Shown: piece by piece, positions 32,830 through 48,332 of the stretch
Numbering within the stretch: position 1 is the stretch's first letter
Layout: the number at the start of each line of letters is the position of its first letter
Origin: a virus
Virus record (IMG/VR): IMGVR_UViG_3300010354_000079
Span: 1-64,000 of that record
Direction: 5' to 3' (one strand)
Length of the DNA: 64,000 nt
Position numbers and translations under genes: made by a program
Notes under the pieces: generated by a model
What the model was told of the DNA's origin: nothing
The model's database searches: none
The model's input: only the letters and a program-made list of their open reading frames with translations

Positions 32830-33456
32830 TCACTTGGTCTCTTCATTGCGCAGAATGCGAGCGAGTTTCACCAGATACTCGTCGCTCCCGTAAATCTCTC
32901 TCAGCTTACCAAAGTCCCCTTTATCGATAAGTCCTCGCATCATCGTCGAACTTTCGGAACCTTCGGGTCTCGGAATCAACTGCCCACCGATGCCAAGCTT
33001 TTTGGTCAATCCTTCGAGGTGGTTCTTGCGATCTTCACCAAGGGCGAGAAGAACGTTTTTGGCTCCTTGTTCATCAACAACTTTCTTCAGGGCTTCATAC
33101 GTGTTAGAGGCGTGGATGAATCTCACTCGGGAGACATCCACACCTTGCTGTTTCAGCACGCGACGAAACATCAAATTTCGAAGGTTCCAGTCGACATTGG
33201 TCTTCGCCCCGCTCATGATTACGTTAACCACCTGGGATTTTTCCAGTAGATTCTGAATCACACGAGCGTGTCCAGGAGTCGGGATATTGTACTTCCCCCA
33301 GGTCACCCCGACTTTGAACGGCTTCTCTTTCGCCCCAGTCTCAGTCCCTTTTCGGCACTTTCCTTTCGTACCATAGTATGTTCCGTCAGAGCGGACACAG
33401 CGAGTGAAGTCGAAAACCAGATCTGTCACTTCTTTGCGAATAAATCCGGAATACAT
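32830..33456 (-). CDS. NMNAT-like nucleotidyltransferase fused to the N-module
   Basis: GKYNIPTPGHARVIQ ((H/T)xGH motif) and ESSTMMRGLI (ISSTxxR-like) after N-terminal FDFTRCVRSDGTYYGTKGKCRKGTE. Confidence 0.5.
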   Translation of the reverse strand: MYSGFIRKEVTDLVFDFTRCVRSDGTYYGTKGKCRKGTETGAKEKPFKVGVTWGKYNIPTPGHARVIQNLLEKSQVVNVIMSGAKTNVDWNLRNLMFRRVLKQQGVDVSRVRFIHASNTYEALKKVVDEQGAKNVLLALGEDRKNHLEGLTKKLGIGGQLIPRPEGSESSTMMRGLIDKGDFGKLREIYGSDEYLVKLARILRNEETK

Positions 33457-33487
33457 TACGAAAGCACCATCTAACGGATTTTACCCG

Positions 33488-34213
33488 CTAGTCAAACACT
33501 TCAAAGGGGACAACCTCCCTCTGCTCAACATCGTAAAGTAAAAGTTGGGGTAACCGTTTGTCAAACCAAGACCGGGTCTTCCCTCCACATCCGGCGTCGA
33601 GAACGAGGCTGCGGCCATCGTTAACAACCTTGTGGTAATGGCCCGCTACCAAAATCCAGTCTCGAGGTTCCTTTCTGCGCCACCAGAAACGCTTCCAGTC
33701 AGGTAAAGAGTAGTCCGCCCCCCACAAAAGTTTTCGAGCTTCTTCCGGAGTGGGGTCAAAGTACTTCCAGGTCCCTTCGTAGTCCGGAACCCGTATAGAA
33801 GCCGGAATTTCCGCGTGGGCCACTCGGTATTCTACTCCTCTGGAGTCGCGAAAGGCTACTATGTACGGAAAGGTTTCTAGCCAGCTAGCCACTTCTTGAA
33901 TGCAGATACCGGCCCTTCTAAATTCCTCTACAGTGCGGGCGAGGTCCTTCTTCAAAGGGATCTCTTTCTTGTTCGCCAAACACTCAAGCAGGTGCTGGTG
34001 ATTCGAACGGAGAACGATGGACCCTAGCTCCTTTTGTGAGCTACGGACCGCCATGTAAACAGCTGGCGCGTCCGAAATATTGCATTGGGAATCAAAGAGG
34101 TCTCCGAGAAACAAAGGAGACAGCCCTTTCTCCTTACAGTACAAAAGAGCCTTCTCCAAAGGTCTCGGTTGGGAATGAACGTCCCCGATAATTGCGTATC
34201 TACTTTGCGTCAC
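33488..34213 (-). CDS. calcineurin-like metallophosphoesterase (paralog of 25532..26266)
   Basis: GDVHS, GDLFDS, SNHQ motifs. Confidence 0.6.
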   Translation of the reverse strand: MTQSRYAIIGDVHSQPRPLEKALLYCKEKGLSPLFLGDLFDSQCNISDAPAVYMAVRSSQKELGSIVLRSNHQHLLECLANKKEIPLKKDLARTVEEFRRAGICIQEVASWLETFPYIVAFRDSRGVEYRVAHAEIPASIRVPDYEGTWKYFDPTPEEARKLLWGADYSLPDWKRFWWRRKEPRDWILVAGHYHKVVNDGRSLVLDAGCGGKTRSWFDKRLPQLLLYDVEQREVVPFEVFD

Positions 34214-34431
34214 TTCGGGAGTTTACCACAAACTTTGTCCAGGGTTGTTGGGTCAATTTCTTTGCTTGACGCAAAAGATCTGCAGCTCAGAATTTCGGTC
34301 TTAATTCGGACGTGCTTATCAACAACTGCCATTAAAGGGACAGATAGAAGAAAGGCCACCCCTCCAGTTATCACAATTAAAAAAGCGAGATCGGCAGGGT
34401 CAACTTCTTTATCGAAAAACGGGAATTTCAT
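34210..34431 (-). CDS. small membrane protein
   Basis: hydrophobic core LAFLIVITGGVAFLLSVPLMAVV. Confidence 0.4.
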   Translation of the reverse strand: MKFPFFDKEVDPADLAFLIVITGGVAFLLSVPLMAVVDKHVRIKTEILSCRSFASSKEIDPTTLDKVCGKLPK

Positions 34432-34779
34432 TTACAGCCTCTGCTCTAGTAGACGTTTGATTGTGTCACCGTGGCAACGCTTGGGTGCGCAACAGCACAC
34501 CAACTCCAGCGTTTCGCAGTCCGGTTCCTTTGCGATAGCCAGCAACGTATTGAATTGCTTCAGTTGAGAACCTTCCTCCAGGATCTTAGCTCCCAGCCAC
34601 TCTTCGTAAGCGTCACAGACTCGGTTCCTCTCGCTCTGACTCGCATCTTTCATCACAAAAGGGTTTCCCAAAGGAGTCCCCCTCATAATTGTGACGCGGC
34701 GAACTCCTTCTGGAGGTTGCGTTGGTCGGTTGCCAAGATGGTACTTGTTAACGACTCGGATATCAGACATCTTCTTCAA
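34432..34779 (-). CDS. hypothetical protein, DUF4326-like (C..CxCxP..CHGD)
   Basis: VVNKYH...RGTPLGNPF...CCCAPKRCHGD pattern. Confidence 0.3.
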   Translation of the reverse strand: MKKMSDIRVVNKYHLGNRPTQPPEGVRRVTIMRGTPLGNPFVMKDASQSERNRVCDAYEEWLGAKILEEGSQLKQFNTLLAIAKEPDCETLELVCCCAPKRCHGDTIKRLLEQRL

Positions 34780-34984
34780 GATAAAGGGGATCGAGTCCGA
34801 TCGATACTTCCACAGTATTCATTGGACTTTCCGGGCTAGTGTTAATGTTCCATAGAGCCCCCTTCACCATGTACATCTTACCGTTAAGGGACAAAGCGCT
34901 CCCTAGCTGAGGGATGGCTGGCAATCTAACGGGAACCTTCGTGAGAACGACATCCCACTTGTCGACGAATTTGACTGAGATCAT
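34763..34984 (-). CDS. hypothetical protein (73 aa)
   Basis: ORF track. Confidence 0.3.
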   Translation of the reverse strand: MISVKFVDKWDVVLTKVPVRLPAIPQLGSALSLNGKMYMVKGALWNINTSPESPMNTVEVSIGLDPLYLEEDV

Positions 34985-35340
34985 TTTGTTATGCGCTTTT
35001 GAGATTTAGTTGAACTTCGGGGGAGGTGCCCACGGCGAGCCAGTTCTTCTCTCATCGGTTTTAACCGTTTTTCAGCTTCGTTGAGCTGTCTGCGAATGTC
35101 GACACAGCCAGAACAATCGCAGCTCCAAACCCAGTCCTCCAAGTAGAAGTGGGTTCTTTTTCTCTCTGAGCGATACGCAGATAGCAAACGAGGGGTTGGT
35201 AAAGAGAGGATCGTTTCGAGTGAGTTACGGTTGGGGTCCATTTGTTGAGTGGCAGTATTTCGTCGGCAGTTTGAACAGTTAGACGAGGAGGTCAGTCGTT
35301 TTCGTTTAGGGTGTGAAGTTCTCCAAGATTTAGCGGGCAA
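34981..35340 (-). CDS. hypothetical protein (paralog of 35330..35635; LPTPRLL motif)
   Basis: ILSLPTPRLLSAY vs LLKLPTPRLLKVF in the neighbouring gene. Confidence 0.35.
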   Translation of the reverse strand: MPAKSWRTSHPKRKRLTSSSNCSNCRRNTATQQMDPNRNSLETILSLPTPRLLSAYRSERKRTHFYLEDWVWSCDCSGCVDIRRQLNEAEKRLKPMREELARRGHLPRSSTKSQKRITK

Positions 35341-35635: not shown

Positions 35636-35674
35636 AGTTTCGTTGGGTGCATGGGAAATAAAAGAGGGAAGCCC

Positions 35675-36772
35675 TCAGGCAATCCCCAGGAGGGCATCCA
35701 GCTTCTTCGGAGACAAGCCTTCCAGCCATTCACCAAAGGTGCCAACCTTGCCAGCGCGAAGCGTGAAGCAAGCGTTTGACAACCCCTTGGACTCAGCCAG
35801 AACAGCCTGAGCGAACTCCTTTTGGTTCAGATGGTTGTGGGCTTCCATCATCGAATCCACAGCAGCTTCCATCATATCAATGGAACGCAGGTGGACATCA
35901 AACCGCTCACGGTACTCAGGGAAGTGAAGCAGAAACTCTTCCAGGTCGTCGTTGAGAAACAACTCGGAGAAGTCCGGATCGCCATTACCGCGAACGCGGT
36001 GGAGCTGGCAATATACATCACTCTTGACCTTTGCGCGTCCGCGACCGTCCGACAGAATGAAACCTTCGTGATCAGCGCCACGACCATTCACGGCAGATTC
36101 GACAGCGGCGAGGTCGCCGAAATCGTAAGACCGAGCCAGGTTGAAGTCCGGTGCGAAAAACTCCAGATTCAGCTCTTCGAAGTCGATCTTCCGATCGCGA
36201 ACCGCCAACAGCGGCAGCTGGGGCTCTTCGTACTCCACGACGATTCGGTTGTCCTTGTGGCACAGTTCAAAGACGTAGCACAAGTTTGGATCCAGAACGT
36301 TACGTGAGTAACCAACTTCGTCGAAGACAGCCCAGAACAGATCCGCGAAAGAGCGACCGGTGGTACCTACTTCCGAAGCCCCAGCGACGGAGCCGGAAGT
36401 AGAGACAATCCAATCATTCTTGTAGTGGAATAACTTGATCAAGGACCCGTCGTACTTCTCGTAGACCTTGGTACGCGACCAATCCAACTCGTGGCAGTAA
36501 CCCTCGCCAACGTTGAAAAAACGATCGAACGCATACGCAACCAAGCGGTAGTACGGCGAGTGGTCACCATCGTTATCTACACGCTCGACAACGGCACCAC
36601 GGCAAGCCCGAACCAAGGGGTCGGCCTTGTCAGTCATGACGGATCCGTACTTCAGATTAAACAGATTCGGGTAGCGCTCGTCGCGAGCCACGCGAATGTC
36701 GCGCTCAGCTAAAGCACCAAAGTCATACCGGTCGTTCAACCAGTCGATCAGGTAGTGGCGGAGGTTTTCCAT
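35675..36772 (-). CDS. RNA ligase 2 (Rnl2)-family ATP-dependent RNA ligase
   Basis: VYEKYDGSLIKLF (KxDGS motif I); start trimmed to MENLRHY, 6 nt after TATAGT-like element of cassette E13. Confidence 0.65.
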   Translation of the reverse strand: MENLRHYLIDWLNDRYDFGALAERDIRVARDERYPNLFNLKYGSVMTDKADPLVRACRGAVVERVDNDGDHSPYYRLVAYAFDRFFNVGEGYCHELDWSRTKVYEKYDGSLIKLFHYKNDWIVSTSGSVAGASEVGTTGRSFADLFWAVFDEVGYSRNVLDPNLCYVFELCHKDNRIVVEYEEPQLPLLAVRDRKIDFEELNLEFFAPDFNLARSYDFGDLAAVESAVNGRGADHEGFILSDGRGRAKVKSDVYCQLHRVRGNGDPDFSELFLNDDLEEFLLHFPEYRERFDVHLRSIDMMEAAVDSMMEAHNHLNQKEFAQAVLAESKGLSNACFTLRAGKVGTFGEWLEGLSPKKLDALLGIA

Positions 36773-36846
36773 ATATATAACTATAGCGCTTTCGCGAGCG
36801 GAAGCAAAGGGGGGTAAACCGGCTTTCAAGGTACGGTTAACCGCCC
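36773..36846 (-). promoter_or_regulatory. cassette E13 (type B; TATAGT, ATG +6-7)
   Basis: GGGCGGTTAACCG...CCGGTTTACCCCCCTTTGC...TATAGTtatatatATG. Confidence 0.55.
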
Positions 36847-36863
36847 TCGCCTTCCGGGTCTGC

Positions 36864-37468: not shown

Positions 37469-37474
37469 TTTCGC

Positions 37475-37896: not shown

Positions 37897-38285
37897 TTAA
37901 TTCTTTATTGCCTCCCGAATAGACTTTTTAGGAACGAGATATGTATTTCCAACTCTCTCTTCGGGTTTTCCGACTTTTGCCCTAATTCGACCCGCAACTA
38001 GAATCAAGTTGTTCTGTGTTCCGTCAAACCCTAATCTCTCCATTTCTCGGCGTATCGACACATCGCTTCGAAACTTAGAGTTGACCAAAAGTTGGGCCAA
38101 AGCCTTTTCTTCTTTAGTGAATTTGACAGTGGGCTTCTTTTCTTTCTCTTCTCTTTTTCCCTTAGACTCAACCTTTTATTCTACCCCTTTCTTGCACTTC
38201 CCTCTAGAACCATAAACTGTTCCGTCCTGGCGAACGCAGCGAGCGAAATCGTAGTGAAAATCTTTCAACAGACCGTGAAAAACTT
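37897..38285 (-). pseudogene. N-module fragment in frame with downstream 67-aa ORF across a single TAA (pseudogene or readthrough candidate)
   Basis: ...DFHYDFARCVRQDGTVYGSRGKCKKGVE-TAA-KVESKGKREEKEKKPTVKF...(TTG)AQLLVNSKFRS... all one frame; no ATG for the module-bearing part. Confidence 0.35.
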
Positions 38286-38831: not shown

Positions 38832-39323
38832 TCACTCTCGAAGAACAAGAGTCACACGGGCCCAACCTTCGACATCTTTCGAAAAAGTTTCGAGCATCGG
38901 AAGAATACGTTCCGGGTCTCCTCCTGCGAGACCGCACCCTATTTTCGGAAAGCCAACTCGAACAACTTCTTGAAGCTGTTCGCTTTGATAAAAAAGAAAT
39001 TGAGAGAGACGATTTAGAAGGGTGTCGAAGAAGTCGTATTCAAAAACATCCTCTTTATTGCTCCATCGATACTGGGTGTATGCGTTCACAACAGTAAAAG
39101 TGGAGCCATCCACCCGTTCAACTTCTGCAGTCGAGAATCTTGAAAGTTTCTTTCGGTCACCATAGGGGGTTCTTAAGTCTGCTAACTTCACTTCGGGGTA
39201 ACGAAAGGCGATTTCTTTCGCTATTCCGTTTCGCATTGCGTGAAAACAGTTGCAGCCATGAACAATGGTATCAAAGTCTCCCTGTTCAGCGAGGTCGATC
39301 AGGTTTCCGAAAATTTGTTTCAT
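38832..39323 (-). CDS. macro domain protein (ADP-ribose binding/processing)
   Basis: GDFDTIVHGCNCFHAMRNGIAKEI resembles the macro-domain Gly-rich ADP-ribose pocket. Confidence 0.45.
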   Translation of the reverse strand: MKQIFGNLIDLAEQGDFDTIVHGCNCFHAMRNGIAKEIAFRYPEVKLADLRTPYGDRKKLSRFSTAEVERVDGSTFTVVNAYTQYRWSNKEDVFEYDFFDTLLNRLSQFLFYQSEQLQEVVRVGFPKIGCGLAGGDPERILPMLETFSKDVEGWARVTLVLRE

Positions 39324-40094: not shown

Positions 40095-40685
40095 TTAGCA
40101 ATAGAGGTAGTTCTTCCACTCTTCTACTTCTGACGTGCTGATTGAAACAGCAATCTTGTTGTAAGGAGCTTTCGGTTTGGAGGACAGTACGGTACCGCGA
40201 GAGTTGATTCGGCTCTCGAGCATTCCAATTTGAAAACTATTCCAGGAGAAGGGCAAGCAAGAAACGTTGGTCGTCTCTTTGTTGAAGACGCGCTTCAGGT
40301 CTTTTGCCCACTCTTCAGGTGTGCGATTGTCCTTACAGTTGTTACACTCAAGGCAGCTCGTGACCAGATTTTGCCATGTGTCCTCTCCACCTCGAGACTT
40401 GGGAATCACGTGGTCGATCGTCAGTTTGGGACCCTTGTATTCGCAGTACTGACAAACGTGCTCATCCCTTTTCAGGATTAGAGCTCGAGTCGGTCTCGTT
40501 ACCGCGCCTGGCCTCACTGGAACCTTTACGTACTTCTTCAGACGAATGGTTCGGCTGGATTCTACGTGGGCCTTTCCCTTCAGAACGAGAATCCGAGCCC
40601 TTTTCCACGTTGTGTGGTTGAGAGGTTCGTACGTGGCATTTAGGACTAGGATGGTCTTTTGGAATGCGATTTTCTTGTAGTCCAT
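40095..40685 (-). CDS. HNH endonuclease
   Basis: HVCQYCEY...LTIDHVIPKSRGGEDTWQNLVTSCLECNNCK. Confidence 0.7.
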   Translation of the reverse strand: MDYKKIAFQKTILVLNATYEPLNHTTWKRARILVLKGKAHVESSRTIRLKKYVKVPVRPGAVTRPTRALILKRDEHVCQYCEYKGPKLTIDHVIPKSRGGEDTWQNLVTSCLECNNCKDNRTPEEWAKDLKRVFNKETTNVSCLPFSWNSFQIGMLESRINSRGTVLSSKPKAPYNKIAVSISTSEVEEWKNYLYC

Positions 40686-40806: not shown

Positions 40807-40829
40807 AGAACCCCAAAACTAATGGGGTT
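40807..40829 (-). terminator. intrinsic terminator-like hairpin downstream of nadV
   Basis: minus-strand GAACCCC-AUUAGUUUU-GGGGUUC followed by UGUGCUUUCUCC. Confidence 0.45.
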
Positions 40830-40855
40830 CTCGAGGATAGTTGAAACCAGCTTTG

Positions 40856-42349
40856 TCACTGAAGAATTCGCTTGCGAATCAATGAGACGGTATCGGAGTA
40901 GTGATAAAGAACCACACTATTCATGAAAATAGTACGCAGTTGCCCTCGGCTCTCTTCATTCCTGGTCTGCCGTTCGTAAAGAACAAAGTCTGAACCTTCC
41001 TTCTCAACTCGCAGAAGCCCTTGTGCCGACTTCTTGGTTCCCCGGTCAGTGATAGGGTCCTTCATGACCTCAACCGGTTTCCCGTTGATTTGAGCCCAAG
41101 TTGTCTTGAAAGCGATTCCAAATGTGTCCCGTGTATGGTACTGGTAGGTGTAGGAACCGACTCCGAAGACGACGTTTCCGCTCGCCCAACCATGTCGAGC
41201 CATATTCTCGAGAATCGACAAAGCCCTTGAGAGAGTTATCGAGTCTCCGTAGATCAAGCCAACTCTAGGATTAAGGCAACGGAAACCTTTCTCGTTAATC
41301 GTTCCACCAAACAAATCCCACAGAAGCTGAAGGGACCCTTTGTGGGCAGGGCTCCCAGGCTCAGCCTCAGGGTCTCCGCAGAGGATCTTCTCAGGGTCAC
41401 CGCTATCGGGCCGGAAGACCACCTTGGCGAGGCCCAGGGCGTCCGGCTGGCGATCCAGAATGGCCCCCTTGAGCTGGGCCGCAATGTTGGTCAGGACGTT
41501 CCAGTAATCCCAAGTGTCGCTCACGATACTTACGATTCCGCTAGGGTAAGTCTCGGAAATCAGGCGCCGATAGGTCTCAATTTCCGTGTCTTTTCCGCCT
41601 GTGCACATCACACTGTGTTCAGTGGCTGGAACGCCTCCTGCAATGAATTCTCCTTCAGTGTCGTAGTAGTCGTCAAGGAAGTCGATCGCGGGAATGTTGT
41701 CAGTCCCCTTGAAGCAGAACAAGTGCCCGATTCCGTGGGCAGCCGAGTCATAAACGCCTCCCACACCTCGAAGCGAGAAGTCATGTGCCTGAAAGTCTAC
41801 GAAAGACTTATCAGTTCCCGTAAGTTCTGCGAACTTATCCAACAAGCGTCGGAACTCGTAAGCGATAGTCGCATTGTTAACAACCTTCCAGATCTCCGCA
41901 GAAAGAGCACTCTCGACGTAGTTTGTCACCCAGTAGAAATCTGGATGCGTGTTTTCCAGAGTGAGGAAAGGTACTCGAAGATTTACTCGACTTCCTTCAG
42001 GAAGAGCCTTTAGCCGAATTGGAAGGTAACCAAGGTCGTGAAGAGCGCCAAGATGCTCAAGTCCGACTGCCCCTTCTCCGAGGGCTGTATCCATTCTCCT
42101 CTTGTACTTTGCGAGAACTCTTTCTTTCGGTTTCCGAAAGAACGTCTCGTTCCAGAGATCTCGGAGATACCAAGTTGCTGTCCCAAGAACTCCTGCAACC
42201 ACGATTTTGTGGTCAAAGTCGGGAAGCATTTTAGCAAGGCGGTCAGAACGAGCTGTCGCATTGGTGTAAATGTACTCCGTTCCTTCGGGGTACTGGCGAT
42301 AGTGACCCGTTTTGTAAAAGTCGGTAGTGTCGGGGGCGAAAAGTTTCAT
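40856..42349 (-). CDS. nadV: nicotinamide phosphoribosyltransferase
   Basis: full-length (~497 aa) similarity pattern to NAMPT (YKTGHYRQYP..., GxGSYTYQY...). Confidence 0.8.
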   Translation of the reverse strand: MKLFAPDTTDFYKTGHYRQYPEGTEYIYTNATARSDRLAKMLPDFDHKIVVAGVLGTATWYLRDLWNETFFRKPKERVLAKYKRRMDTALGEGAVGLEHLGALHDLGYLPIRLKALPEGSRVNLRVPFLTLENTHPDFYWVTNYVESALSAEIWKVVNNATIAYEFRRLLDKFAELTGTDKSFVDFQAHDFSLRGVGGVYDSAAHGIGHLFCFKGTDNIPAIDFLDDYYDTEGEFIAGGVPATEHSVMCTGGKDTEIETYRRLISETYPSGIVSIVSDTWDYWNVLTNIAAQLKGAILDRQPDALGLAKVVFRPDSGDPEKILCGDPEAEPGSPAHKGSLQLLWDLFGGTINEKGFRCLNPRVGLIYGDSITLSRALSILENMARHGWASGNVVFGVGSYTYQYHTRDTFGIAFKTTWAQINGKPVEVMKDPITDRGTKKSAQGLLRVEKEGSDFVLYERQTRNEESRGQLRTIFMNSVVLYHYSDTVSLIRKRILQ

Positions 42350-42352
42350 TGT

Positions 42353-43270
42353 CTAAGCGGCACTGCGAAGGTAGGAAACGTTCTGAGGAATGGCGTCGTA
42401 GAATGAATTGTTGGGAAGAAGATTTGCAACGTAGAAGGTGTCGATCAGATTGTCGAAAACCTCAAAACTCTTTGAGAAAATCCCGTGAGTGACATAAAGG
42501 TCGATTCGAGAAGGATTGTGTTTACGAAGAACTTTTGCCAGCTCAACAAAGGTTCTACCACCATCGCAGATATCATCCACAATCAAAAGGGGCTTTCCTG
42601 CGTAGGATACTTCAGTGGGAACATCGGTTCTCAGGATTTGCCCATTCTCAGGGTTTCTGACTTTGGTCGCATAAACCACTGAGCTGAGACCGAGTTCTTT
42701 CTGAGCCAAGGTAGCACGCTCAACGGCACCTTTGTCAGGGGCAATCACGATTGTGTCGGAGGGAAACCTCGCTCCCCCTCGGCAAAAGTCTCGAAGAAGG
42801 GAGTCTGGCTTGACGTTGAACAACGTGCAACCTTCCTCTCGGAAAAGACTGGAAGCGACTGGGCTATGCGCATCCCAAGTTATGACTTTATCGCTTACAC
42901 TGAGGTATGGCGCCAAAGCCTTCACAAAGACAGACAGGGAGAAAGCTTCCCCTTCGACACAAGCTCGGTCTTGCCTACTATACGGGAGATACGGGAGTAT
43001 AAGCTCTATTTCACACGTAATGGGTAGGCGACAGAGGGCGTCAAGGGTGAGCAGAAGTTCGACAAATGATCCGCTATCATGAATGTCTGCGTTGACAATC
43101 ACTTTCTCGAGCTTGGGGATAGTGTTCAATCGGACTTGAGTCTCCCCCGCACTAAAATGAAAAGAGGAATTTTTAAGGATTCCGATTCCGTCAGGGGTAA
43201 TTCCCATGATTTCAATCGGCTTCCTCTTTCGAAGGCTGATCATTTCGTCGCTCTTAATCAAGACTTTCAC
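42353..43270 (-). CDS. prs: ribose-phosphate pyrophosphokinase (PRPP synthetase)
   Basis: LLIVDDICDGGRT PRPP-binding motif; FSAGETQVRL N-domain; directly downstream of nadV; GTG start. Confidence 0.75.
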   Translation of the reverse strand: MKVLIKSDEMISLRKRKPIEIMGITPDGIGILKNSSFHFSAGETQVRLNTIPKLEKVIVNADIHDSGSFVELLLTLDALCRLPITCEIELILPYLPYSRQDRACVEGEAFSLSVFVKALAPYLSVSDKVITWDAHSPVASSLFREEGCTLFNVKPDSLLRDFCRGGARFPSDTIVIAPDKGAVERATLAQKELGLSSVVYATKVRNPENGQILRTDVPTEVSYAGKPLLIVDDICDGGRTFVELAKVLRKHNPSRIDLYVTHGIFSKSFEVFDNLIDTFYVANLLPNNSFYDAIPQNVSYLRSAA

Positions 43271-43629: not shown

Positions 43630-44478
43630 TCAGAACTTAAAGCCGAGACCGATATTTCCGACCGGACTGTAACCGGTTCCGGAAACACCGTTACTTTGAG
43701 TTGGGAACTTCAGGTCAGCGAAACCTACTAGGGAAGGGGTGAGGGAACGTTCTACACCTGCGACAAACAGAAACTGGGAACCTTGGCCAATGCTGGTCTG
43801 AAAGTTTGCCAATCCGTTGTTAGTGAGTGCCCACTGTCCACCTGCACCAAGGTACAAGTTGGTGCTGCTGACGTAAGCGTCACCGATTTTACGCCCAGCA
43901 AGGGAAACGTCAACCGTCCCGAGAACGCCACCGGCAGAGCCGATTTGGCTATCCGGGCCAGCCGAAAAGTTCACATAGGGGCGAACGGAGACGTTGGCTC
44001 CGAAGGCTTTACCCAAGGGAAGGCGACTTTGAACTGTTGCACCGGCAACAGTGCGATTTGCATCGTAGCCACCACCGTTCACTCCTTGGCGGTTGAGAGT
44101 AACTCCAACGCCGAGGTAGGAACCGACCCCTACAGCGCGAGTTGCAGCTGCGTTTTCCAGACGAGTGATTCGAGCGCTTTCAGTTGCGAGCGCAATGCGA
44201 ACTCGGTCAGCAAGAACTCGATCTTCATTGCTCAAAGTGTTGTAAACTTCGTCAAGGCACGCACTCATAAGCGCAATCGACTCGTAGCGAGTCGCTGAGT
44301 TCTTTCCGCGCAGAGTTCCGTCCGAGTATCCGGCAACGCAACCATATCGTTGAACGAGGTTTTGCAACGCTGGGTAAGCCCAATCGGTCGGAGAAACGTC
44401 AGGGAACTGTGCTCCAGCAAAACCTGGGCTTGCGACAGAGGCTGCGATTGCAGCGACAGCAAGATTACGAATTTTCAT
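43630..44478 (-). CDS. SLH-domain outer-membrane porin-like protein
   Basis: signal peptide, then FPDVSPTDWAYPALQNL...GYSDGTLRG (SLH motif) and Gly/aromatic-rich beta-barrel ending in F. Confidence 0.55.
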   Translation of the reverse strand: MKIRNLAVAAIAASVASPGFAGAQFPDVSPTDWAYPALQNLVQRYGCVAGYSDGTLRGKNSATRYESIALMSACLDEVYNTLSNEDRVLADRVRIALATESARITRLENAAATRAVGVGSYLGVGVTLNRQGVNGGGYDANRTVAGATVQSRLPLGKAFGANVSVRPYVNFSAGPDSQIGSAGGVLGTVDVSLAGRKIGDAYVSSTNLYLGAGGQWALTNNGLANFQTSIGQGSQFLFVAGVERSLTPSLVGFADLKFPTQSNGVSGTGYSPVGNIGLGFKF

Positions 44479-44720
44479 GTATTTTTTCGTGAGAGTGAGT
44501 AAGCAAAGAACAACTGCTTACAAGGTAAGCATACAGGTTTCAGAGGGGAGTAAAGTGGGGCCTCTTAAGAAAGCGGCCTCAATCGTCGTTACCGATCTGA
44601 AAAATTTCAATCCACGCCAATGTAGAAAGAGTGATGATCACACAATCAACGAAAAGCGTTTTGAAGTCAGGAATGATTTCCATTGAAAGAAAAGGGTGAG
44701 ATTTCTCTCACCCGGTAGCC

Positions 44721-45200
44721 TCAAAGGCGGGACACACACACGTTAGCAAGACCGCTTTCGGTAACACCCAGTTGACTGGCGGCTCCGTGGCCGAGGTCAA
44801 TTATTCTACCACCGACATATGGCCCACGGTCGTTGATTCGGACGTCGGCTACACGGCCATTGTCCTTGTTTCGAACTCGAACCCATGTCCCCATGGGAAG
44901 TGTGGGATGCGCTGCGGTCATAGTTCCACGGCGATAGACCTCTCCGTTTGCAGTCAGGTTTCCGTAGAATCCTGGACCGTACCAACTGGCTTGCCCGCAT
45001 TGTGCAGCATTTGCTGGAGTTGCAAGAGGCAAACAAAGAGCGGAAGCAAGGGCCAGTTTGGATAAAATTCGCATTGAAAAAGAAGAACTCAACATTCGTG
45101 TTTGTTGCTTTTGGCAACCACGACTCTCAGCCTGTCTTTCCAGGCATGAAACCATGATAGCTGGTTCGAGAGAGTCTGTAAAGGACGGGAAACCGGCCAT
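44721..45200 (-). CDS. RlpA-like DPBB lipoprotein
   Basis: ASWYGPGFYGNLTANGEVY...AAHPTLPMGTWVRVRN...VRINDRGPY; likely start at internal MRILSKLALASALCLPLA signal peptide. Confidence 0.55.
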   Translation of the reverse strand: MAGFPSFTDSLEPAIMVSCLERQAESRGCQKQQTRMLSSSFSMRILSKLALASALCLPLATPANAAQCGQASWYGPGFYGNLTANGEVYRRGTMTAAHPTLPMGTWVRVRNKDNGRVADVRINDRGPYVGGRIIDLGHGAASQLGVTESGLANVCVSRL

Positions 45201-45874
45201 CAGACCCCCTCACCGAGAAGTTCAGCTAGATTTCGCTCATAGAAGCGGACAAGATCGGAAAACCTTTTCACAGGTTGTCCGTAGTAACTATTTCCAGAAA
45301 GAGTTGGAAAAGATGCCCACTCTGGAGCAAGACGTGCGGCAAGTTCCGGCGTCATTCGCCCGGAATCTGCTAAGGTGAGAGCACCTCTTTTCTCGATCAA
45401 GTAGAGAGCGGCCTGGTCTTGGTTTGCCGGCTCAAAACTTTTGAGGTTTAACTTTGAAGCAGCCTCCCTCCAGGTCCCCGGCATGAACTGGTAAGCTCCA
45501 GCGGCGGCGCTTGCGTAACCACCGGAGTACTGGACACGGTCGGGATGCTCCTCGAGAGAAGAAATTGTTCGTCCACCAAATAGAATTCTGTAGCCAGTTT
45601 CCTGTCCATCGGACCAGGTACCTTCGGCGTAACGAATGGTGTTTAGAAGGGCTCTGCGCTCAGGTGTGAGATTGTAAGTGGGAGCCGGAAAGAATTTTTC
45701 AGAATCGCAGCCTGTGCAAATGGGGCTCGAATCCAAATTGAAGTCTGGAGCAAAATCTCTGATTGCGACTTGTTGAGTAATCGAAGGTTGAAGCGATTTC
45801 TCAGGAAGGGCAATCAAGGGATTCACGGCAGTTCCAACAAGGGAAACGGCCACAAGTGTAGTGAGGTTAAGCAT
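45200..45874 (-). CDS. GH104-type muramidase / lytic transglycosylase (secreted)
   Basis: signal peptide; RALLNTIRYAEGT...YRILFGG...SSLEEHP...SAAAGAYQFMPGTW. Confidence 0.55.
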   Translation of the reverse strand: MLNLTTLVAVSLVGTAVNPLIALPEKSLQPSITQQVAIRDFAPDFNLDSSPICTGCDSEKFFPAPTYNLTPERRALLNTIRYAEGTWSDGQETGYRILFGGRTISSLEEHPDRVQYSGGYASAAAGAYQFMPGTWREAASKLNLKSFEPANQDQAALYLIEKRGALTLADSGRMTPELAARLAPEWASFPTLSGNSYYGQPVKRFSDLVRFYERNLAELLGEGV

Positions 45875-46113
45875 TCATAAGAACAGAAATCAGCATCCGT
45901 ATAGGGAACGGTCACTCGCCTGTTTCAGGGCGCATTTCCCCACGGCACAAGAGATTTAGGAGCACAATATCAGGCTCTGAGTCCCGCTCCACCGTTTTGG
46001 CAGAGAGCCTCCTCATAAAAGGCGACTCTGAAAGTCCCAGGACAAAACCAGTATAGCGCGGACCCTATTAAGTAAACCACATGCTTTACCAACCCCTGTA
46101 AAGGGACCTGCGG

Positions 46114-46308
46114 TCATCTCTCTTTTTTATCCGGTACCACAAAATGCACAGGAGGGTATGTGCGACAGTATTCTCGAAATTCTTCTTTCAACCGCTCCCA
46201 CTCCACTGAGTTTGCCTCTCTATCCATTTGAAGTGCGGCGGTTGGTATATTCCATCGGGCAGAAAATAACATGGAAAAGGCTTTCTGCTCTTTTGATTCT
46301 TCTTCCAT
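46114..46308 (-). CDS. hypothetical protein (64 aa)
   Basis: ORF track. Confidence 0.3.
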   Translation of the reverse strand: MEEESKEQKAFSMLFSARWNIPTAALQMDREANSVEWERLKEEFREYCRTYPPVHFVVPDKKER

Positions 46309-46332
46309 GTTCCTTCTCTGTCTTTAGCTAGC

Positions 46333-46689
46333 TTACCCTCGGCCCCACCGTATTAATCTTGAGAGTGTGCCTTGTTTCGAGGTTCTCCATAAGGGAAACT
46401 CGGAGAGTAGATAGCGATTTTCCTCTCGTAGAAGGCAAGCGATTGCGCTCGGGTCGTACCCAGGGTAATCGGGGTCATGAAACTCCACCACAGTGATTCC
46501 GTGGGACTCTAGGACTGCGGAAATCTGCAGAAGTTCCCATCTATCCTTAGCAGTCAGCCATACAAAAGGAGGATGTTCTTCTGAAAGAGAACTCGGGTAG
46601 ATTCGGGACAGCTCAAGCTGGGCGTGCGCTGCTTGAATAGCTTGTTGATGGATGGGGAGATCCCGTCGGGAAATTGCGTAGAAGTGCAT
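46333..46689 (-). CDS. hypothetical protein (118 aa)
   Basis: ORF track. Confidence 0.35.
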   Translation of the reverse strand: MHFYAISRRDLPIHQQAIQAAHAQLELSRIYPSSLSEEHPPFVWLTAKDRWELLQISAVLESHGITVVEFHDPDYPGYDPSAIACLLREENRYLLSEFPLWRTSKQGTLSRLIRWGRG

Positions 46690-46955
46690 TTGGGTGGTTT
46701 TACTGGTGGTGGCAATTTGCGTATCGCTCGAAAAGTCGCTGCTCAGATTTCATCGAGTTTTCCAGAAATTTTCGATAACTTTTGATCACACTCGTCAGTG
46801 CAGAAATTTCACCGTCTTGTACTGGTTTAGCCCTCGCATAAAGGTTTCCATGTCTGGAGCTTCTTCGGCGTCGGAGCGAAACTGCTCTCGAGACTCAGGA
46901 GCGATTTGTTGTATCATGGCCGCGAGGGTGCGGCATGTTTCCGGATTGTTCAGGT

Positions 46956-48332
46956 TCATTGTAAGTCTTTTGGTAGTTCAGGGTCTTCTGCAACTATGAT
47001 AGCGCCACGGTTGAGAACGACCCAGTAATCTTGCCCGATTTGGGGTATTCTGTAAGCGTGAATACCAAGTGCGGCGGCGGCGGCTCCAGCGTCGATAAAA
47101 ACACGTCCGGTTGTTCTTTCCGCTTTCCCGATGATTTCTCTTTCCCACTGTGGAAAGGTCTTACCGTCTTCGTCAGTCTGTGCCAAGTTTGCGTCGGAAC
47201 GAAAGGCGAATGCCGTTACTCGAGATGCCGCACCTCCTTCTCCTCCGGAGTAAGAGATTGCAGTCTCTTGTGCCCACCTATCATGTTTTGTGTTTCCTTT
47301 TATGGTGGAGGAAGCAGCATAACTTCCGTCCCCGTAAATCCCCTGCCCCGGGAAATGGGCCTCGCCGTTCGGCCCGCCACCTTTGAACTGAAGAGAGTAT
47401 TCCTCAGTTGTGACCCCACGATAGGCAATGATCGGCCTTCCGTCGGGGTTTCTGGCTATGTCGCTTCTTGCTTCTAAATCGGACCTTTTCGCAACAACCT
47501 CTGGTTTTGCATTAAACCCCTGTTTTGCGTAGATCGTTGCGAGACGCGGAGGACTCACTGAGGACAAGTCGCCCTTTTCTGCGTATTGTATATCTAGCTC
47601 AAGCGAAAAAATTCGTCTCTTAATGTACCTAGCGTCAGAGGGGAGAGCCTCACTCAATTCCTTTTTCTGTGCCTCCAGCTCTTCTTTCAACTCCCTTAAA
47701 ACAAGTGCCTTTGTTACTTTAGGGAGCGGCTTGAGACTACCTGGAGTTTGAGTGTATTTCGGGGACTGTTTTAAGAGCTCACTTTCTCCTTGCTTAGAAC
47801 TTGCGGGAACTTTCGACTGCGTCTCGGTCTCAACCTGAGCTTTTTTGGAGTCCAGGTGAGCCTTCATTCTCAATGCTCTTAGAGCTATGAGAGTGTTTAC
47901 TGTGAGCGGTGTCCTAAATCCAGGATTGCTCTTTATAAGTCTGGCCAGTGTCTGGATATTTTTTTCTATGTCCTCGGGCTTAGTGTTCTCGTGTGCTTTC
48001 AGCTCTTTTAAGATCTTAACCCTGCGCTCAGACTTGCTTTCTTTTTTGGGCTCGGGTGCCCCTTCCATGCGACTTGCAGCTGCGGCCATGCGAGCTCTTG
48101 TTTCAGCCTGCCTTGCCTTCTTTTCTGCAGGCGTCAGCTTAACCTTTTTGGAACGGGACTTAGGTGGCGATGCAACCTTGGCTTCTTCGGTACCCTTTCG
48201 ACACTTCCCTGATGTACCGTACACTGTTCCATTGGGCCTCACGCACCGTGTGAAGTCAAAGGAATCTTCCGAGTATCGGTAAATGAGATCAGAGCACAAG
48301 TCTAAAGCTTCTTCGGAAATTCTTCCTTGCAT
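46956..48332 (-). CDS. N-module protein with C-terminal R-S-ExE mono-ADP-ribosyltransferase-like domain
   Basis: N-term SFDFTRCVRPNGTVYGTSGKCRKGTE; C-term IIAYRGV (Arg), SYAASST (STS-like), FPQWEREII (Q/ExE). Confidence 0.45.
   Translation of the reverse strand: MQGRISEEALDLCSDLIYRYSEDSFDFTRCVRPNGTVYGTSGKCRKGTEEAKVASPPKSRSKKVKLTPAEKKARQAETRARMAAAASRMEGAPEPKKESKSERRVKILKELKAHENTKPEDIEKNIQTLARLIKSNPGFRTPLTVNTLIALRALRMKAHLDSKKAQVETETQSKVPASSKQGESELLKQSPKYTQTPGSLKPLPKVTKALVLRELKEELEAQKKELSEALPSDARYIKRRIFSLELDIQYAEKGDLSSVSPPRLATIYAKQGFNAKPEVVAKRSDLEARSDIARNPDGRPIIAYRGVTTEEYSLQFKGGGPNGEAHFPGQGIYGDGSYAASSTIKGNTKHDRWAQETAISYSGGEGGAASRVTAFAFRSDANLAQTDEDGKTFPQWEREIIGKAERTTGRVFIDAGAAAAALGIHAYRIPQIGQDYWVVLNRGAIIVAEDPELPKDLQ

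What the first reader, a model, noticed from the sequence alone, without database searches (positions are those of the whole stretch)
32830..48332. NAD+-centred gene set: adjacent nadV-prs, a module-tagged NMNAT-like enzyme, an ADP-ribosyltransferase and a macro domain protein
NadV (40856..42349) and PRPP synthetase (42353..43270) are adjacent and could be co-transcribed. An NMNAT-like HxGH nucleotidyltransferase (32830..33456) completes a nicotinamide-to-NAD+ salvage route of the kind phages use to counter NAD+-depleting defence systems. An R-S-ExE ART (46956..48332) and a macro domain protein (38832..39323) add ADP-ribosyl writing and erasing/reading functions. The NMNAT-like enzyme and the ART carry the shared N-module, so both may be delivered together into the host.
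Basis: partly seen in the sequence, partly recalled or inferred. Interest (0 to 1): 0.65.

Follow-up and report, generated by a model that had tools for sequence, protein, structure and literature searches.

The report
Cyanophage NAD+ rebuilding and ADP-ribose genes
This stretch of an uncultured cyanophage-like genome carries a known phage counter-defence pathway that rebuilds NAD+ from its breakdown products, plus several accessory NAD+/ADP-ribose enzymes, two of which carry a short, undescribed N-terminal tag.

Summary
All five ORFs exist at the stated coordinates, and the shared N-terminal module is real (7 copies in the window). The interpretation needs correcting.

- **nadV-prs pair.** It is the NARP1 operon, Adps then Namat. 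Gene order matches, the spacer is 3 nt and a hairpin follows. The NadV-like protein has the Namat-specific adenine-clamp motif (GSYTYQYHTRD). The Prs-like protein has the phage Adps-type PP loop (DDICDGGRTF). NAD+ would be rebuilt from ADP-ribose plus nicotinamide, with no need for PRPP or an NMNAT.
- **Macro protein.** It is Poa1p-like and 33% identical to the macro gene inside a Vibrio-phage Adps-macro-Namat operon. It is therefore a candidate ADPR-1''-phosphate phosphatase, but it lies outside the operon.
- **NMNAT-like protein.** It is a HIGH-fold nucleotidyltransferase (TPGH, SSTxxR) closest to NadM/NadR/archaeal NMNATs, below curated thresholds. Its conserved neighbours are a metallophosphoesterase, DUF4326 and an RNA ligase. 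Phage S-CBWM1 has it without any Namat or Adps.
- **Delivery into the host.** This remains an inference.

Overall this is a new variant of known systems, of moderate interest.

The parts
42353..43270 (-). Adps-type Prs-like gene (ADP-ribose pyrophosphokinase candidate), first gene of NARP1
   Evidence: Family hits: Pfam Pribosyltran and Pribosyltran_N; PHROG 619 1.9e-67. NCBIfam gives only 129 bits on the subfamily model TIGR01251, and every Prs equivalog model scores far below its cut-off, for example 113 against 296. PP loop: VDDICDGGRTF (aa 231-241, window 42548-42580), like phage Adps of GRLPWR (VDDISDGGASF) and Vp_R1 (CDDICDGGGTF) and unlike E. coli Prs (VDDMIDTGGTL). Published Adps residues are D212-D213-I214-C215-D216...F221. 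The hairpin Lys is in TKVRNPENGQI.
40856..42349 (-). Namat-type NadV-like gene (nicotinamide ADP-ribose transferase candidate), second gene of NARP1
   Evidence: Family hits: NAPRTase 1.5e-36; PHROG 448 5.6e-175. The Namat-specific SCH motif GSX-phi-X-phi-X-phi-TRD is present as GSYTYQYHTRD (aa 398-408, window 41126-41158). The same position reads GGGLLQQSDRD in a KVP40-like NadV. Catalytic F191, D217 and R313 are conserved. Identity is 35-59% to NARP1-type phage proteins against 27-30% to T4-like/KVP40-like NadV.
40807..40831 (-). Terminator-like hairpin closing the Adps-Namat unit
   Evidence: 9-bp stem with 5 GC pairs, 25 nt after the Namat stop codon. It is the strongest minus-strand site in 32.5-50.2 kb. 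This is a consensus scan only.
40095..40685 (-). HNH homing endonuclease inserted just downstream of Namat (not part of the pathway)
   Evidence: PHROG 16726 7.1e-41. It occupies the same position after Namat in the relative L008.
38832..39323 (-). Poa1p-like macro domain protein; candidate ADPR-1''-phosphate phosphatase (Adpp-like)
   Evidence: PHROG 335 'phosphatase' 7.5e-41. PDB sequence hits: macrodomain 5e3b 3.9e-4 and yeast Poa1p 6lfu 4e-3. Pfam Macro reaches only E 0.029. It is 33% identical (E 4e-20) to GRLPWR gp179, which sits between Adps and Namat. That architecture was shown for Vibrio phage Gary to be NARP1-AP.
34432..34779 (-). DUF4326 protein (rhodanese-phosphatase clade predicted to act on phosphates of ADP-ribose derivatives)
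   Evidence: Pfam DUF4326 1.7e-15. The functional prediction comes from PMC9503650. The gene lies directly upstream of the NMNAT-like gene in L002, L003 and L008.
33488..34213 (-). Metallophosphoesterase, conserved neighbour of the NMNAT-like gene
   Evidence: Pfam Metallophos 9.4e-6. PHROG 8238 (Pnkp/RNA-ligase-type) 1.2e-8. It is adjacent to the NMNAT-like gene in S-CBWM1, L006 and L008.
32830..33456 (-). N-module-tagged HIGH-superfamily nucleotidyltransferase, most likely an NMN/NaMN adenylyltransferase
   Evidence: N-module at aa 16-37 (window 33346-33411). Motifs: TPGH at aa 60-63 and SESSTMMR at aa 167-174, with G62, H63, S169, S170, T171 and R174 invariant in 19 homologues. The AlphaFold model has pLDDT 84.5. 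The Foldseek top hit is NadM 2qjo at 5.5e-6, but PPATs score comparably. Among family members, 14/19 hit NadM, 13/19 NadR-NMNAT and 8/19 archaeal NMNAT (best 3.5e-5), against 3/19 for PPAT. All these scores are below curated cut-offs.
46956..48332 (-). N-module-tagged protein with a C-terminal ART-fold domain (aa 250-458, window 46959-47585)
46795..46959 (-). Conserved 54-aa ORF translationally coupled (ATGA overlap) to the ART-fold gene; candidate partner or immunity protein
   Evidence: The overlap is seen. ORFs of the same position and size follow the ART-fold gene in L014 and L015. They are 75% and 44% identical to the window ORF.
48335..49909 (-). 524-aa protein with two N-module copies (aa 21-42 and 333-354), immediately upstream of the ART-fold gene
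   Evidence: Seen. There is no Pfam or PHROG hit.
35675..36829 (-). T4 Rnl1-like RNA ligase, conserved upstream neighbour of the DUF4326/Metallophos/NMNAT-like group
   Evidence: Pfam RNA_lig_T4_1 3.2e-18. PHROG 562 8.9e-42. It is syntenic in L006, L008 and the P0011 contig.

Best explanation
The region belongs to an uncultured cyanophage-like virus and holds a set of NAD+/ADP-ribose counter-defence genes.

**Core: NARP1.** The core is a two-gene NARP1 operon.
- The Prs-like protein (42353-43270) would act as Adps, transferring pyrophosphate from ATP onto ADP-ribose.
- The NadV-like protein (40856-42349) would act as Namat, replacing that pyrophosphate with nicotinamide.
- NAD+ cleaved by SIR2, TIR or SEFIR-type defence effectors would thus be rebuilt directly from its two products.

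**Accessory genes.**
- The Poa1p-like macro protein (38832-39323) most likely dephosphorylates ADPR-1''-phosphate. That is the product of RES-type NAD+ phosphorolysis. Its removal would feed ADPR into NARP1, giving a dispersed version of NARP1-AP.
- DUF4326 (34432-34779) probably trims other phosphorylated ADPR derivatives.
- The N-module-tagged nucleotidyltransferase (32830-33456) most likely adenylylates NMN to NAD+. It would use host-derived NMN, or NMN made by the residual PRPP-dependent activity of Namat. This would give a second, ADPR-independent route.
- The N-module-tagged ART-fold protein (46956-48332), with its coupled 54-aa partner, is a separate NAD+-using effector of the diphtheria-toxin/PARP/RES structural class. 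Its target is unknown.

**What is shown and what is inferred.** Gene identities, motifs, folds and synteny are shown here. All enzymatic activities and any packaging into virions are inferred.
For: **NARP1.**
- Gene order is Prs-like then Nampt-like with a 3-nt spacer, as in Bas63 genes 79-80.
- 97% of Adps-clade genes have a Namat neighbour, whereas bacterial prs genes rarely do.
- The Namat-specific motif GSX-phi-X-phi-X-phi-TRD with aromatic X is present as GSYTYQYHTRD. In-operon Vibrio phage proteins read GSFTYQYVTRD and GSYTYQYVTRD, whereas a KVP40-like NadV reads GGGLLQQSDRD.
- Catalytic F191, D217 and R313 are conserved.
- Identity is 35-59% to NARP1-type phage proteins and 27-30% to T4-like/KVP40-like NadV.
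- The Adps-type PP loop DDICDGG..F contrasts with E. coli DDMIDTGGTL.
- Every Prs equivalog model scores far below its cut-off.
- A hairpin follows Namat.

**Macro.** PHROG 335 scores 7.5e-41; PDB hits include Poa1p and other macrodomains; and it is 33% identical to the in-operon macro of GRLPWR. The published work showing that this macro type is an ADPR-1P phosphatase completing NARP1-AP was read.

**DUF4326.**

**NMNAT-like.** Invariant (T/H)xGH and SSTxxR motifs, a HIGH fold, and a predominance of NadM/NadR/archaeal NMNAT profile hits.

**Synteny.** The arrangement ART-like...SLH...Prs-like is conserved in L014. Namat-HNH...Rnl1-DUF4326-Metallophos-NMNAT-like...macro is conserved in L008.
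Against: - No activity was measured for any of these proteins.
- Position phi-3 of the Namat motif is His here, rather than the usual Asn or Val.
- The macro gene is not in the Adps-Namat operon. It lies 1.5 kb downstream, beyond a hairpin, an HNH gene and three small ORFs.
- Its family occurs in about 2,400 phage records, including T4-like phages. In the relatives L002 and L003 it sits with the NMNAT-like gene and no NARP1 within 10 kb.
- All NMNAT-like profile hits are below curated cut-offs, and PPAT structures match about as well as NMNATs.
- S-CBWM1 encodes the NMNAT-like gene but no Namat, Adps or macro. This departs from the reported rule that phage NadM always co-occurs with NadV.
- Osterman et al. 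found no phage with both NARP1 and NARP2.
Confidence: 0.7

Rival explanations
1. The proteins would form a canonical three-step salvage route of the NARP2 type. Prs makes PRPP, NadV makes NMN from nicotinamide and PRPP, and the NMNAT-like enzyme makes NAD+.
For: - Pfam and NCBIfam name the two proteins as the Prs and NAPRTase/NadV families.
- Namat enzymes retain NMN-forming activity with PRPP.
- An NMNAT-like gene lies 7.4 kb away, and the relative L008 shows a syntenic arrangement.
Against: - The Namat aromatic clamp motif is present, and the KVP40-type sequence at that position is absent.
- The PP loop is Adps-type, and scores against all Prs equivalog models are poor.
- NARP2 phages lack an adjacent Prs-like gene, and their Nmnat is a NadM-type fusion with Nudix. 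Here the enzyme is a 208-aa single domain.
- The NMNAT-like gene occurs without any NadV or Prs homologue in S-CBWM1.
Confidence: 0.1
2. The NMNAT-like protein is not an NMN adenylyltransferase. It would be a HIGH-fold nucleotidyltransferase with a different phospho-acceptor, for example a ribose-phosphate or ADPR-related compound, or 4'-phosphopantetheine. It would work with its conserved neighbours (metallophosphoesterase, DUF4326, RNA ligase, macro) in an RNA-repair or ADPR-processing cassette.
For: - The conserved neighbourhood Rnl1 / DUF4326 / Metallophos / nucleotidyltransferase / macro appears in L002, L003, L006, L008 and the P0011 contig.
- Adjacency to the Metallophos gene is kept even in S-CBWM1 at 38% identity, in a genome without Namat or Adps.
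- PPAT structures match as well as NMNATs in Foldseek.
- All NMNAT HMM hits are sub-threshold.
Against: - Among specific families, NMNAT models dominate: 14/19, 13/19 and 8/19 members, against 3/19 for PPAT.
- PHROG 3462 (NMNAT) is hit by 18/19 members.
- NadM and archaeal NMNAT structures align over more columns (171-190) than PPATs (about 145).
- No known RNA-repair system uses a HIGH nucleotidyltransferase (own knowledge).
Confidence: 0.3
3. The macro protein is an eraser of macromolecular ADP-ribosylation rather than an ADPR-1''-P phosphatase feeding NARP1. It would reverse host ART or DarT-type modification, or protect against the phage's own ART-fold effector.
For: - The best PDB sequence hit is macrodomain entry 5e3b, which I recall to be the Streptomyces protein-de-ADP-ribosylating macrodomain SCO6735 (own knowledge).
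- There is a weak DarG hit.
- The family is widespread in phages that lack NARP1.
- The gene lies outside the Adps-Namat unit.
- In L002 and L003 it occurs without NARP1 nearby.
Against: - Similarity to the in-operon macro of GRLPWR is clear: E 4e-20 over 148 residues.
- Yeast Poa1p is also hit.
- The published Adpp was described as Poa1p-like by HHpred and is a stand-alone macro protein. The GRLPWR protein in the same operon position is 158 aa against 163 aa here.
Confidence: 0.3
4. The ART-fold domain is not a transferase that modifies host macromolecules. It would be an NAD+ glycohydrolase or phosphorylase (RES-like), or a non-catalytic structural or ejection-protein domain.
For: - There is no invariant Glu, and the ExE is not conserved.
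- RES toxins (ParT, MbcT, Xre-RES) are among the best structural matches.
Against: - A dense set of invariant polar residues (R305, H326, Y338, Y361, R378, D380, H425, D435, N441, R442) argues for an active site.
- The conserved coupled small ORF resembles toxin-immunity pairs.
- The domain is fused to MuF together with a Zeta-toxin domain in PSS2 gp030, as are other enzymatic effectors.
Confidence: 0.35

Closest known systems
NARP1 (Adps + Namat; Bas63 genes 79-80, SPbetaL1, Fado; Osterman et al.)
   Same: It is a two-gene unit in the order Prs-like then Nampt-like. It has the Namat aromatic SCH motif, the conserved catalytic F/D/R residues and an Adps-type PP loop, and it is phage-borne.
   Different: It sits in a cyanophage-like metagenomic genome; no paper in the searched library links Namat to cyanophages. 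Motif position phi-3 is His. An HNH endonuclease is inserted just downstream. Activity is untested.
NARP1-AP (Adps-Adpp-Namat operon of Vibrio phage Gary)
   Same: A Poa1p-like stand-alone macro protein accompanies NARP1. It is 33% identical to the macro gene in the equivalent GRLPWR operon.
   Different: The macro gene is not inside the operon. It lies five genes downstream, beyond a hairpin. In relatives it travels with the NMNAT-like/DUF4326 group rather than with NARP1.
NARP2 (KVP40 Nampt + NadM-type Nmnat)
   Same: A NAPRTase-family enzyme and an NMNAT-like HIGH nucleotidyltransferase occur in one phage genome. Namat can also make NMN from PRPP.
   Different: The NAPRTase-family enzyme here is Namat-type, not KVP40-type. 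The nucleotidyltransferase is a 208-aa single domain with no Nudix domain, and it carries an N-terminal module. NARP1 and NARP2 were not found together in about 20,000 phages.
NadM / NadR / archaeal NMN adenylyltransferases
   Same: It shares the HIGH fold and the (T/H)xGH and SxTxxR motifs. The best Foldseek hit is NadM 2qjo, and the best specific HMM hits are to these families.
   Different: Scores are below all curated cut-offs. There is no Nudix or kinase partner domain. The first His of the motif is Thr. An N-terminal 22-aa Cys-containing module is present in essentially all members of this protein family.
MuF-anchored polyvalent or polymorphic head effectors (e.g. PSS2 gp030) and T4 Alt
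   Same: The ART-fold domain is homologous to the C-terminal domain of MuF proteins (PSS2 gp030, which has MuF plus Zeta toxin; P0082). In metagenomes the N-module is fused to bona fide PF03496 ARTs and to kinases, the same type of cargo that MuF carries.
   Different: There is no MuF domain here, and the N-module takes its place. No head genes are nearby. The domain is not of the Alt/VIP2 R-S-E family. Packaging has not been shown.
Diphtheria-toxin / PARP (H-Y-[EDQ]) and RES clades of the ART superfamily
   Different: Arg stands in place of the first His (YRG). There is no invariant Glu, and R378-x-D380 is the only candidate acidic motif. Sequence similarity is not detectable.

Membership tests
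NARP1 | A Prs-like (Adps) gene immediately next to a Nampt-like (Namat) gene on a phage genome, Adps first | tested here: met
   Genes 43270->42353 then 42349->40856 with a 3-nt spacer.
NARP1 | Namat selectivity-clamp helix motif GSX-phi-X-phi-X-phi-TRD with aromatic X at positions 3 and 7 | tested here: met
   GSYTYQYHTRD at aa 398-408. The KVP40-like D485 NadV has GGGLLQQSDRD at this position.
NARP1 | Conserved Nampt-like catalytic core (F189, D215, R306 of SPbetaL1 Namat) | tested here: met
   F191 in HDF, D217 in KGTD and R313 in FRPDSGDP.
NARP1 | Adps clade membership: remodelled PP loop and hairpin Lys, distinct from canonical Prs | tested here: met
   PP loop DDICDGGRTF, compared with GRLPWR DDISDGGASF, Vp_R1 DDICDGGGTF and E. 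coli DDMIDTGGTL. Prs equivalog models score far below their cut-offs. No formal phylogeny was run.
NARP1 | ADPR + ATP -> ADPR-PP, then ADPR-PP + nicotinamide -> NAD+ | not testable with these tools
   A biochemical assay is needed.
NARP1-AP | A Poa1p-like macro phosphatase (Adpp) homologue is present | tested here: met
   PHROG 335 7.5e-41; Poa1p 6lfu 4e-3; 33% identity (E 4e-20) to the in-operon macro of GRLPWR.
NARP1-AP | The macro gene is part of the NARP1 operon | tested here: not met
   It lies 1.5 kb downstream, separated by a hairpin, an HNH gene and three small ORFs.
NARP2 | KVP40-type Nampt (PRPP-preferring clade, no Adps neighbour) | tested here: not met
   The protein has the Namat motif and an Adps neighbour. 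Identity to T4-like/KVP40-like NadV is only 27-30%.
NARP2 | Nmnat homologue (NadM-type, NMNAT + Nudix) | tested here: inconclusive
   Sub-threshold NadM/NadR/archaeal NMNAT hits in 8-14 of 19 family members. No Nudix domain: the protein is 208 aa.
NARP3 | PnuC-like transporter plus bifunctional NadR-like enzyme (NMNAT + ribosylnicotinamide kinase) | tested here: not met
   No PnuC family appears among the window ORFs scanned with Pfam. The nucleotidyltransferase has no kinase domain.
HIGH-superfamily nucleotidyltransferase | (H/T)xGH and SxTxxR motifs on a Rossmann-like fold | tested here: met
   TPGH (HSGH in S-CBWM1) and SESSTMMR, with the key residues invariant. The model has pLDDT 84.5, and 93 PDB matches have E<=1e-3; all 50 listed are members of this superfamily.
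R-S-ExE ADP-ribosyltransferases (Alt/VIP2/C3; PF03496, PF01129) | Conserved catalytic ExE (or QxE) on the ARTT loop, and detectable family similarity | tested here: not met
ART superfamily (fold level) | Split beta-sheet ART fold with an Arg/His-Gly strand and an aromatic NAD+-binding segment | tested here: met
Macro domain | Match to macro-domain profiles or structures | tested here: met
   Pfam Macro reaches only E 0.029, below its cut-off. PHROG 335 scores 7.5e-41, and PDB macrodomains 5e3b, 6lfu and 5m3i are hit.
Capsid-packaged or injected effector (MuF- or CTS-type) | Physical presence in virions, or fusion to or adjacency with head morphogenesis proteins | tested here: not met
   There is no MuF domain and no head gene in the window. 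Only the cargo domain is shared with MuF proteins. Virion proteomics cannot be done with these tools.

The most novel reading that the evidence does not exclude
The 22-residue N-module (DFTRCVRPDGxxYGTxGKCRKG) may be a previously undescribed virion-loading or ejection tag, a functional analogue of MuF fusions or the T4 capsid-targeting sequence. On this reading, this cyanophage lineage pre-loads NAD+-related enzymes into the capsid together with kinases. These would include the NMNAT-like enzyme and the ART-fold effector, and bona fide ARTs in relatives. NAD+-centred counter-defence and host takeover would then begin at DNA entry, before any phage gene is expressed.

The evidence does not exclude this. 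The module occurs in 893 protein clusters. Its cargo is of the effector type. The same ART-fold cargo is fused to MuF in other phages. There is also a structural match to a cyanophage ejection protein.
Probability: 0.2. Interest if true: 0.8.

Novelty: new variant of a known kind. Interest (0 to 1): 0.5.

Why it matters
- NARP1 and its macro-phosphatase extension were described in coliphages, Bacillus phages and vibriophages. Finding the signature motifs in a cyanophage-like genome extends the NAD+ arms race to cyanobacteria.
- The arrangement is unusual. NARP1 is combined with a Poa1p-like macro, DUF4326 and a divergent NMNAT-like enzyme, although NARP1 and NARP2 were reported never to co-occur.
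- If the NMNAT-like enzyme is active, this phage would have both an ADPR-dependent and an ADPR-independent way to restore NAD+. The second would matter against RES-type defences.
- The N-terminal module links the NMNAT-like enzyme, an ART-fold effector and, in relatives, true ARTs and kinases. That makes it a concrete, testable candidate for a new effector-targeting signal.
- The case also shows that 'prs + nadV' annotations in phages should be read as Adps + Namat unless shown otherwise.

Tried and rejected
- **Megablast.** A search of the nadV-prs DNA against 50,697 phage records found nothing.
- **Pfam.** At its thresholds it gave no hit for the NMNAT-like, macro or ART proteins.
- **PDB sequence searches.** The single-sequence NMNAT-like search gave no nucleotidyltransferase hit. 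The ART protein and its family profile gave only low-complexity or coiled-coil noise.
- **Foldseek, NMNAT-like model.** It could not separate NMNAT from PPAT. The subfamily call rests on HMM tallies.
- **R-S-ExE reading.** Rejected after the conservation analysis and hhalign.
- **Related viral loci.** The search for related loci on viral contigs returned only two loci. Co-occurrence statistics are therefore anecdotal.
- **Bas63 accession.** My guess (MZ501111) turned out to be Bas51. The in-operon GRLPWR and Vp_R1 proteins were used as NARP1 references instead.
- **Literature.** The original S-CBWM1 paper, with possible virion proteomics, is not in the searchable library. No paper contains the module sequence, and no paper links Namat with cyanophages.
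- **RNA-repair role for the nucleotidyltransferase.** Considered because of its conserved neighbours. It is kept only as a rival because no such chemistry is known.
- **NARP3.** Considered and rejected: there is no PnuC and no kinase domain.

Full report
**Setting.** The window is a gene-dense stretch transcribed almost entirely on the minus strand, with GC about 48%. It has no close DNA match among deposited phages.
- The nearest isolate by protein similarity is Synechococcus phage S-CBWM1.
- The exact NMNAT-like protein is found only on metagenomic contigs.
- Relatives carry psbA, and the window carries a cyanobacterial-type permuted tmRNA. A cyanobacterial host is therefore likely.
- None of the ten largest remaining ORFs is a structural gene. 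The window is an accessory or early-type region rich in RNA ligases, kinases, phosphoesterases and nucleases.

**Observation check.**
- The NadV-like and Prs-like assignments are solid at family level.
- The two genes are separated by 3 nt (TAG-ACA-ATG). A 9-bp-stem hairpin follows 25 nt after the NadV-like stop codon.
- The shared N-module is real. The core DFTRCVRxxGxxYGxxGKCRKG occurs seven times in the window, always on the minus strand. One copy is in the NMNAT-like protein, one in the ART-like protein and two in the 524-aa protein immediately upstream of the latter.

**The nadV-prs pair is NARP1.** Osterman et al. showed that phage operons annotated 'Prs + Nampt' do not make PRPP and NMN. 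The Prs-like enzyme (Adps) pyrophosphorylates ADP-ribose. The Nampt-like enzyme (Namat) joins ADPR-PP to nicotinamide, giving NAD+. In their data 97% of Adps-clade genes have a Namat neighbour, whereas bacterial prs genes rarely do. The window pair meets every sequence-level criterion I could test.
1. Gene order and spacing match.
2. Structural work defined a Namat-specific selectivity-clamp helix, GSX-phi-X-phi-X-phi-TRD, with aromatic X residues stacking on the adenine; it is absent from Nampt.
   - The window protein has GSYTYQYHTRD.
   - In my alignment the in-operon proteins of Vibrio phages GRLPWR and Vp_R1 read GSFTYQYVTRD and GSYTYQYVTRD.
   - A 254-kb KVP40-like vibriophage NadV without a Prs-like neighbour reads GGGLLQQSDRD.
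3. The catalytic residues equivalent to F189, D215 and R306 are present.
4. Across about 2,000 phage records, identity is 35-59% to proteins of NARP1-type phages (mycobacteriophages with an adjacent Prs-like gene, Felixounaviruses, Pakpunaviruses, ICP1). It then drops to 27-30% for T4-like/KVP40-like NadV.
5. The Prs-like protein has the PP loop VDDICDGGRTF. This resembles GRLPWR and Vp_R1 and the published Adps residues D212-D213-I214-C215-D216...F221, and it differs from E. coli Prs VDDMIDTGGTL.
6. The Prs-like protein scores far below the cut-off of every Prs equivalog model.

I rate NARP1 identity at about 0.85. The step from sequence to activity is inferred.

**Macro protein.** Pfam only grazes it (E 0.029).
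- It belongs to PHROG 335 ('phosphatase', 7.5e-41).
- It hits PDB macrodomains, including yeast Poa1p, the ADP-ribose 1''-phosphate phosphatase.
- A 2026 preprint shows that RES-domain defences cleave NAD+ to ADPR-1''-P, which NARP1 cannot use. It also shows that 15% of NARP1 phages add a Poa1p-like macro protein (Adpp) that restores ADPR (NARP1-AP).
- The window protein is 33% identical (E 4e-20) to the gene lying between Adps and Namat in GRLPWR.

There are caveats. The window gene lies outside the Adps-Namat unit. The family is very large, with 2,408 phage records including T4-like phages. In relatives it travels with the NMNAT-like group rather than with NARP1. An Adpp-like role is the best single guess (about 0.5). 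An eraser role remains a live rival.

**NMNAT-like protein.** Nineteen homologues, all carrying the N-module where complete, share invariant G62-H63 and S169-S170-T171-R174. The motif is TPGH in the window and HSGH in S-CBWM1.
- The AlphaFold model (pLDDT 84.5) has a HIGH nucleotidyltransferase fold. The best Foldseek hit is NadM, but PPATs score comparably.
- Profile tallies favour NMNATs. NadM models are hit by 14/19 members, NadR-NMNAT by 13/19, archaeal NMNAT by 8/19 (best 3.5e-5) and PHROG NMNAT by 18/19, against 3/19 for PPAT.
- All these scores are below curated thresholds.

- The gene's conserved neighbours are an Rnl1-type RNA ligase, DUF4326 and a metallophosphoesterase.
- Namat is seen near it only in L008.
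- The complete S-CBWM1 genome has the NMNAT-like/metallophosphoesterase pair but no Namat, Adps, macro or DUF4326.
- NARP1 does not need an NMNAT.
- Osterman et al. found no phage combining NARP1 and NARP2.

My reading is that this is probably an NMN adenylyltransferase (about 0.55-0.6) acting on host-derived NMN or on NMN from Namat's side activity. That would give an ADPR-independent route alongside NARP1. This would be a new combination if it is confirmed.

**DUF4326.** Iyer et al. assign DUF4326 to a rhodanese-phosphatase clade that is often fused to Macro, NADAR and SLOG domains. They predict that it removes terminal phosphates from ADP-ribose derivatives. It adds to the NAD+/ADPR theme.

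**ART-like protein.** There is no Pfam or PDB sequence hit.
- The C-terminal 209 residues model confidently (pLDDT 92.2).
- The E397-R-E399 triplet that prompted 'R-S-ExE' is present in only 9/42 and 15/42 homologues and lies in a helix.
- The invariant residues are R305-G306, H326, the G-x-G-x-Y-G-x-G-[ST]-Y338-A-A segment, Y361, R378-x-D380, H425, D435 and N441-R442-G443.
- hhalign against a module-bearing PF03496 ART aligns only the N-module.

So the fold is ART, but the family is not Alt/VIP2, and the catalytic residues are atypical because there is no invariant Glu.
- The same domain forms the C-terminus of MuF proteins: PSS2 gp030, which carries MuF plus Zeta toxin, and P0082.
- A 51-54-aa ORF overlapping the stop codon (ATGA) is conserved downstream in three loci, with 75% and 44% identity. 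This is reminiscent of effector-immunity pairs.
- In L014 the order ART-like...SLH protein...Prs-like is syntenic with the window.

**The N-module and the 'delivered together' idea.**
- A profile of the seven window copies finds 893 cluster representatives (E<=1e-3), of which 409 have E<=1e-10, among 1.84 billion proteins. The module usually starts near residue 25 or 61 and is sometimes duplicated.
- Among the top 140, the recognisable cargo domains are PF03496/PF01129 ARTs (7 and 6 members), protein kinases (4), ABC1 and APH kinases (2 each), DUF6496 (3), a cytidylyltransferase-like domain (1) and DUF3626 (1). The rest are unknown.
- Only S-CBWM1 among 50,697 deposited phage records carries the module, with two copies.
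- No paper in the library contains the motif.

The cargo spectrum is that of host-takeover effectors. The ART-fold cargo is alternatively fused to MuF, a known head-internal anchor. This makes a packaging or ejection tag a reasonable hypothesis. Against it, no head gene is nearby, the module models poorly (pLDDT about 50-60), and no virion data are available. I give it a probability of about 0.2.

**Verdict.** The theme of NAD+-centred counter-defence is supported, but the mechanism is different from the one proposed. The core is a new member of NARP1. The ensemble is a new variant of known systems: NARP1, an unlinked Adpp-like macro, DUF4326, a module-tagged NMNAT-like enzyme and a module-tagged non-canonical ART-fold effector with a coupled small ORF. 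Interest is moderate (0.5). The upside lies in the module and in the possible dual NAD+ reconstitution routes.

Noticed in passing
window 51198-51462 (-): Phage-borne permuted, cyanobacterial-type tmRNA. Rfam cyano_tmRNA scores 76 bits (gathering 70) and tmRNA_permuted 82 bits (gathering 47). ARAGORN gives the tag peptide ANKIVKFERTAVAV.
   Followed up: partly
window 20159-20904 (-): Three unusually long (114-118 nt) matches to the Rfam tRNA model that ARAGORN does not call. They may be intron-containing or otherwise interrupted tRNA genes.
   Followed up: no
window 46795-46959 (-); L014:9103-9258; L015:9377-9541: A conserved 51-54-aa ORF overlaps the stop codon of the ART-fold gene (ATGA). 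It is 75% and 44% identical across loci and is a candidate immunity or partner protein.
   Followed up: partly
window 19168-19233, 38185-38250, 48848-48913, 49784-49849, 61705-61770 (all -): Five further copies of the N-module lie outside the two proteins named in the finding. One forms the C-terminus of a small ORF that ends just after ...GKCKKGVE. The module family has 893 cluster representatives in metagenomes and is absent from Pfam.
   Followed up: partly
window 27515-28600, 33488-34213, 35675-36829 (-) and an unlocated ORF: An RNA-repair-like gene set: an Rnl1-like ligase, a second ligase (PHROG 968), a Pnkp-type metallophosphoesterase and, somewhere in the window, a T4 Pnkp-like protein (AAA_33 + HAD_PNKP). 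A Ro-like RNA-binding protein lies at 21132-22769.
   Followed up: partly
window 40095-40685 (-); L008:330-914: An HNH homing endonuclease sits directly after the Namat terminator. It is in the same place in a 201-kb relative (75% identity), so the insertion predates their divergence.
   Followed up: partly
L008:4708-5043 and 6491-7261: The Rnl1-like ligase of the relative L008 matches in two pieces 1.4 kb apart. This suggests an intervening element (intron, intein or endonuclease) that the window gene lacks.
   Followed up: no
L003:6378-6822: A freshwater relative carries Tad2-like and Acb2/Tad1-hairpin genes (sponges for Thoeris/CBASS signals) 3.5 kb upstream of its NMNAT-like gene. L002, which is otherwise identical, lacks them.
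   Followed up: no
window 43630-44478, 44721-45200, 45200-45874 (-): Between the ART-fold gene and Adps lie an SLH-domain protein, a 'lipoprotein precursor'-like protein and an endolysin/peptidase-like protein. The SLH gene keeps its position next to the Prs-like gene in L014.
   Followed up: no
window, unlocated ORFs among 71 scanned: Pfam also finds an EF-Ts homologue, two R2K-type ATP-grasp hits (R2K_2 and R2K_3, one member each), a thymidylate kinase, SprT-like, DUF6915 and a weak DNA_processg_A hit, a DprA-type domain that I recall is related to SLOG domains (own knowledge). The scan mode used did not report which ORF carries which family.
   Followed up: no
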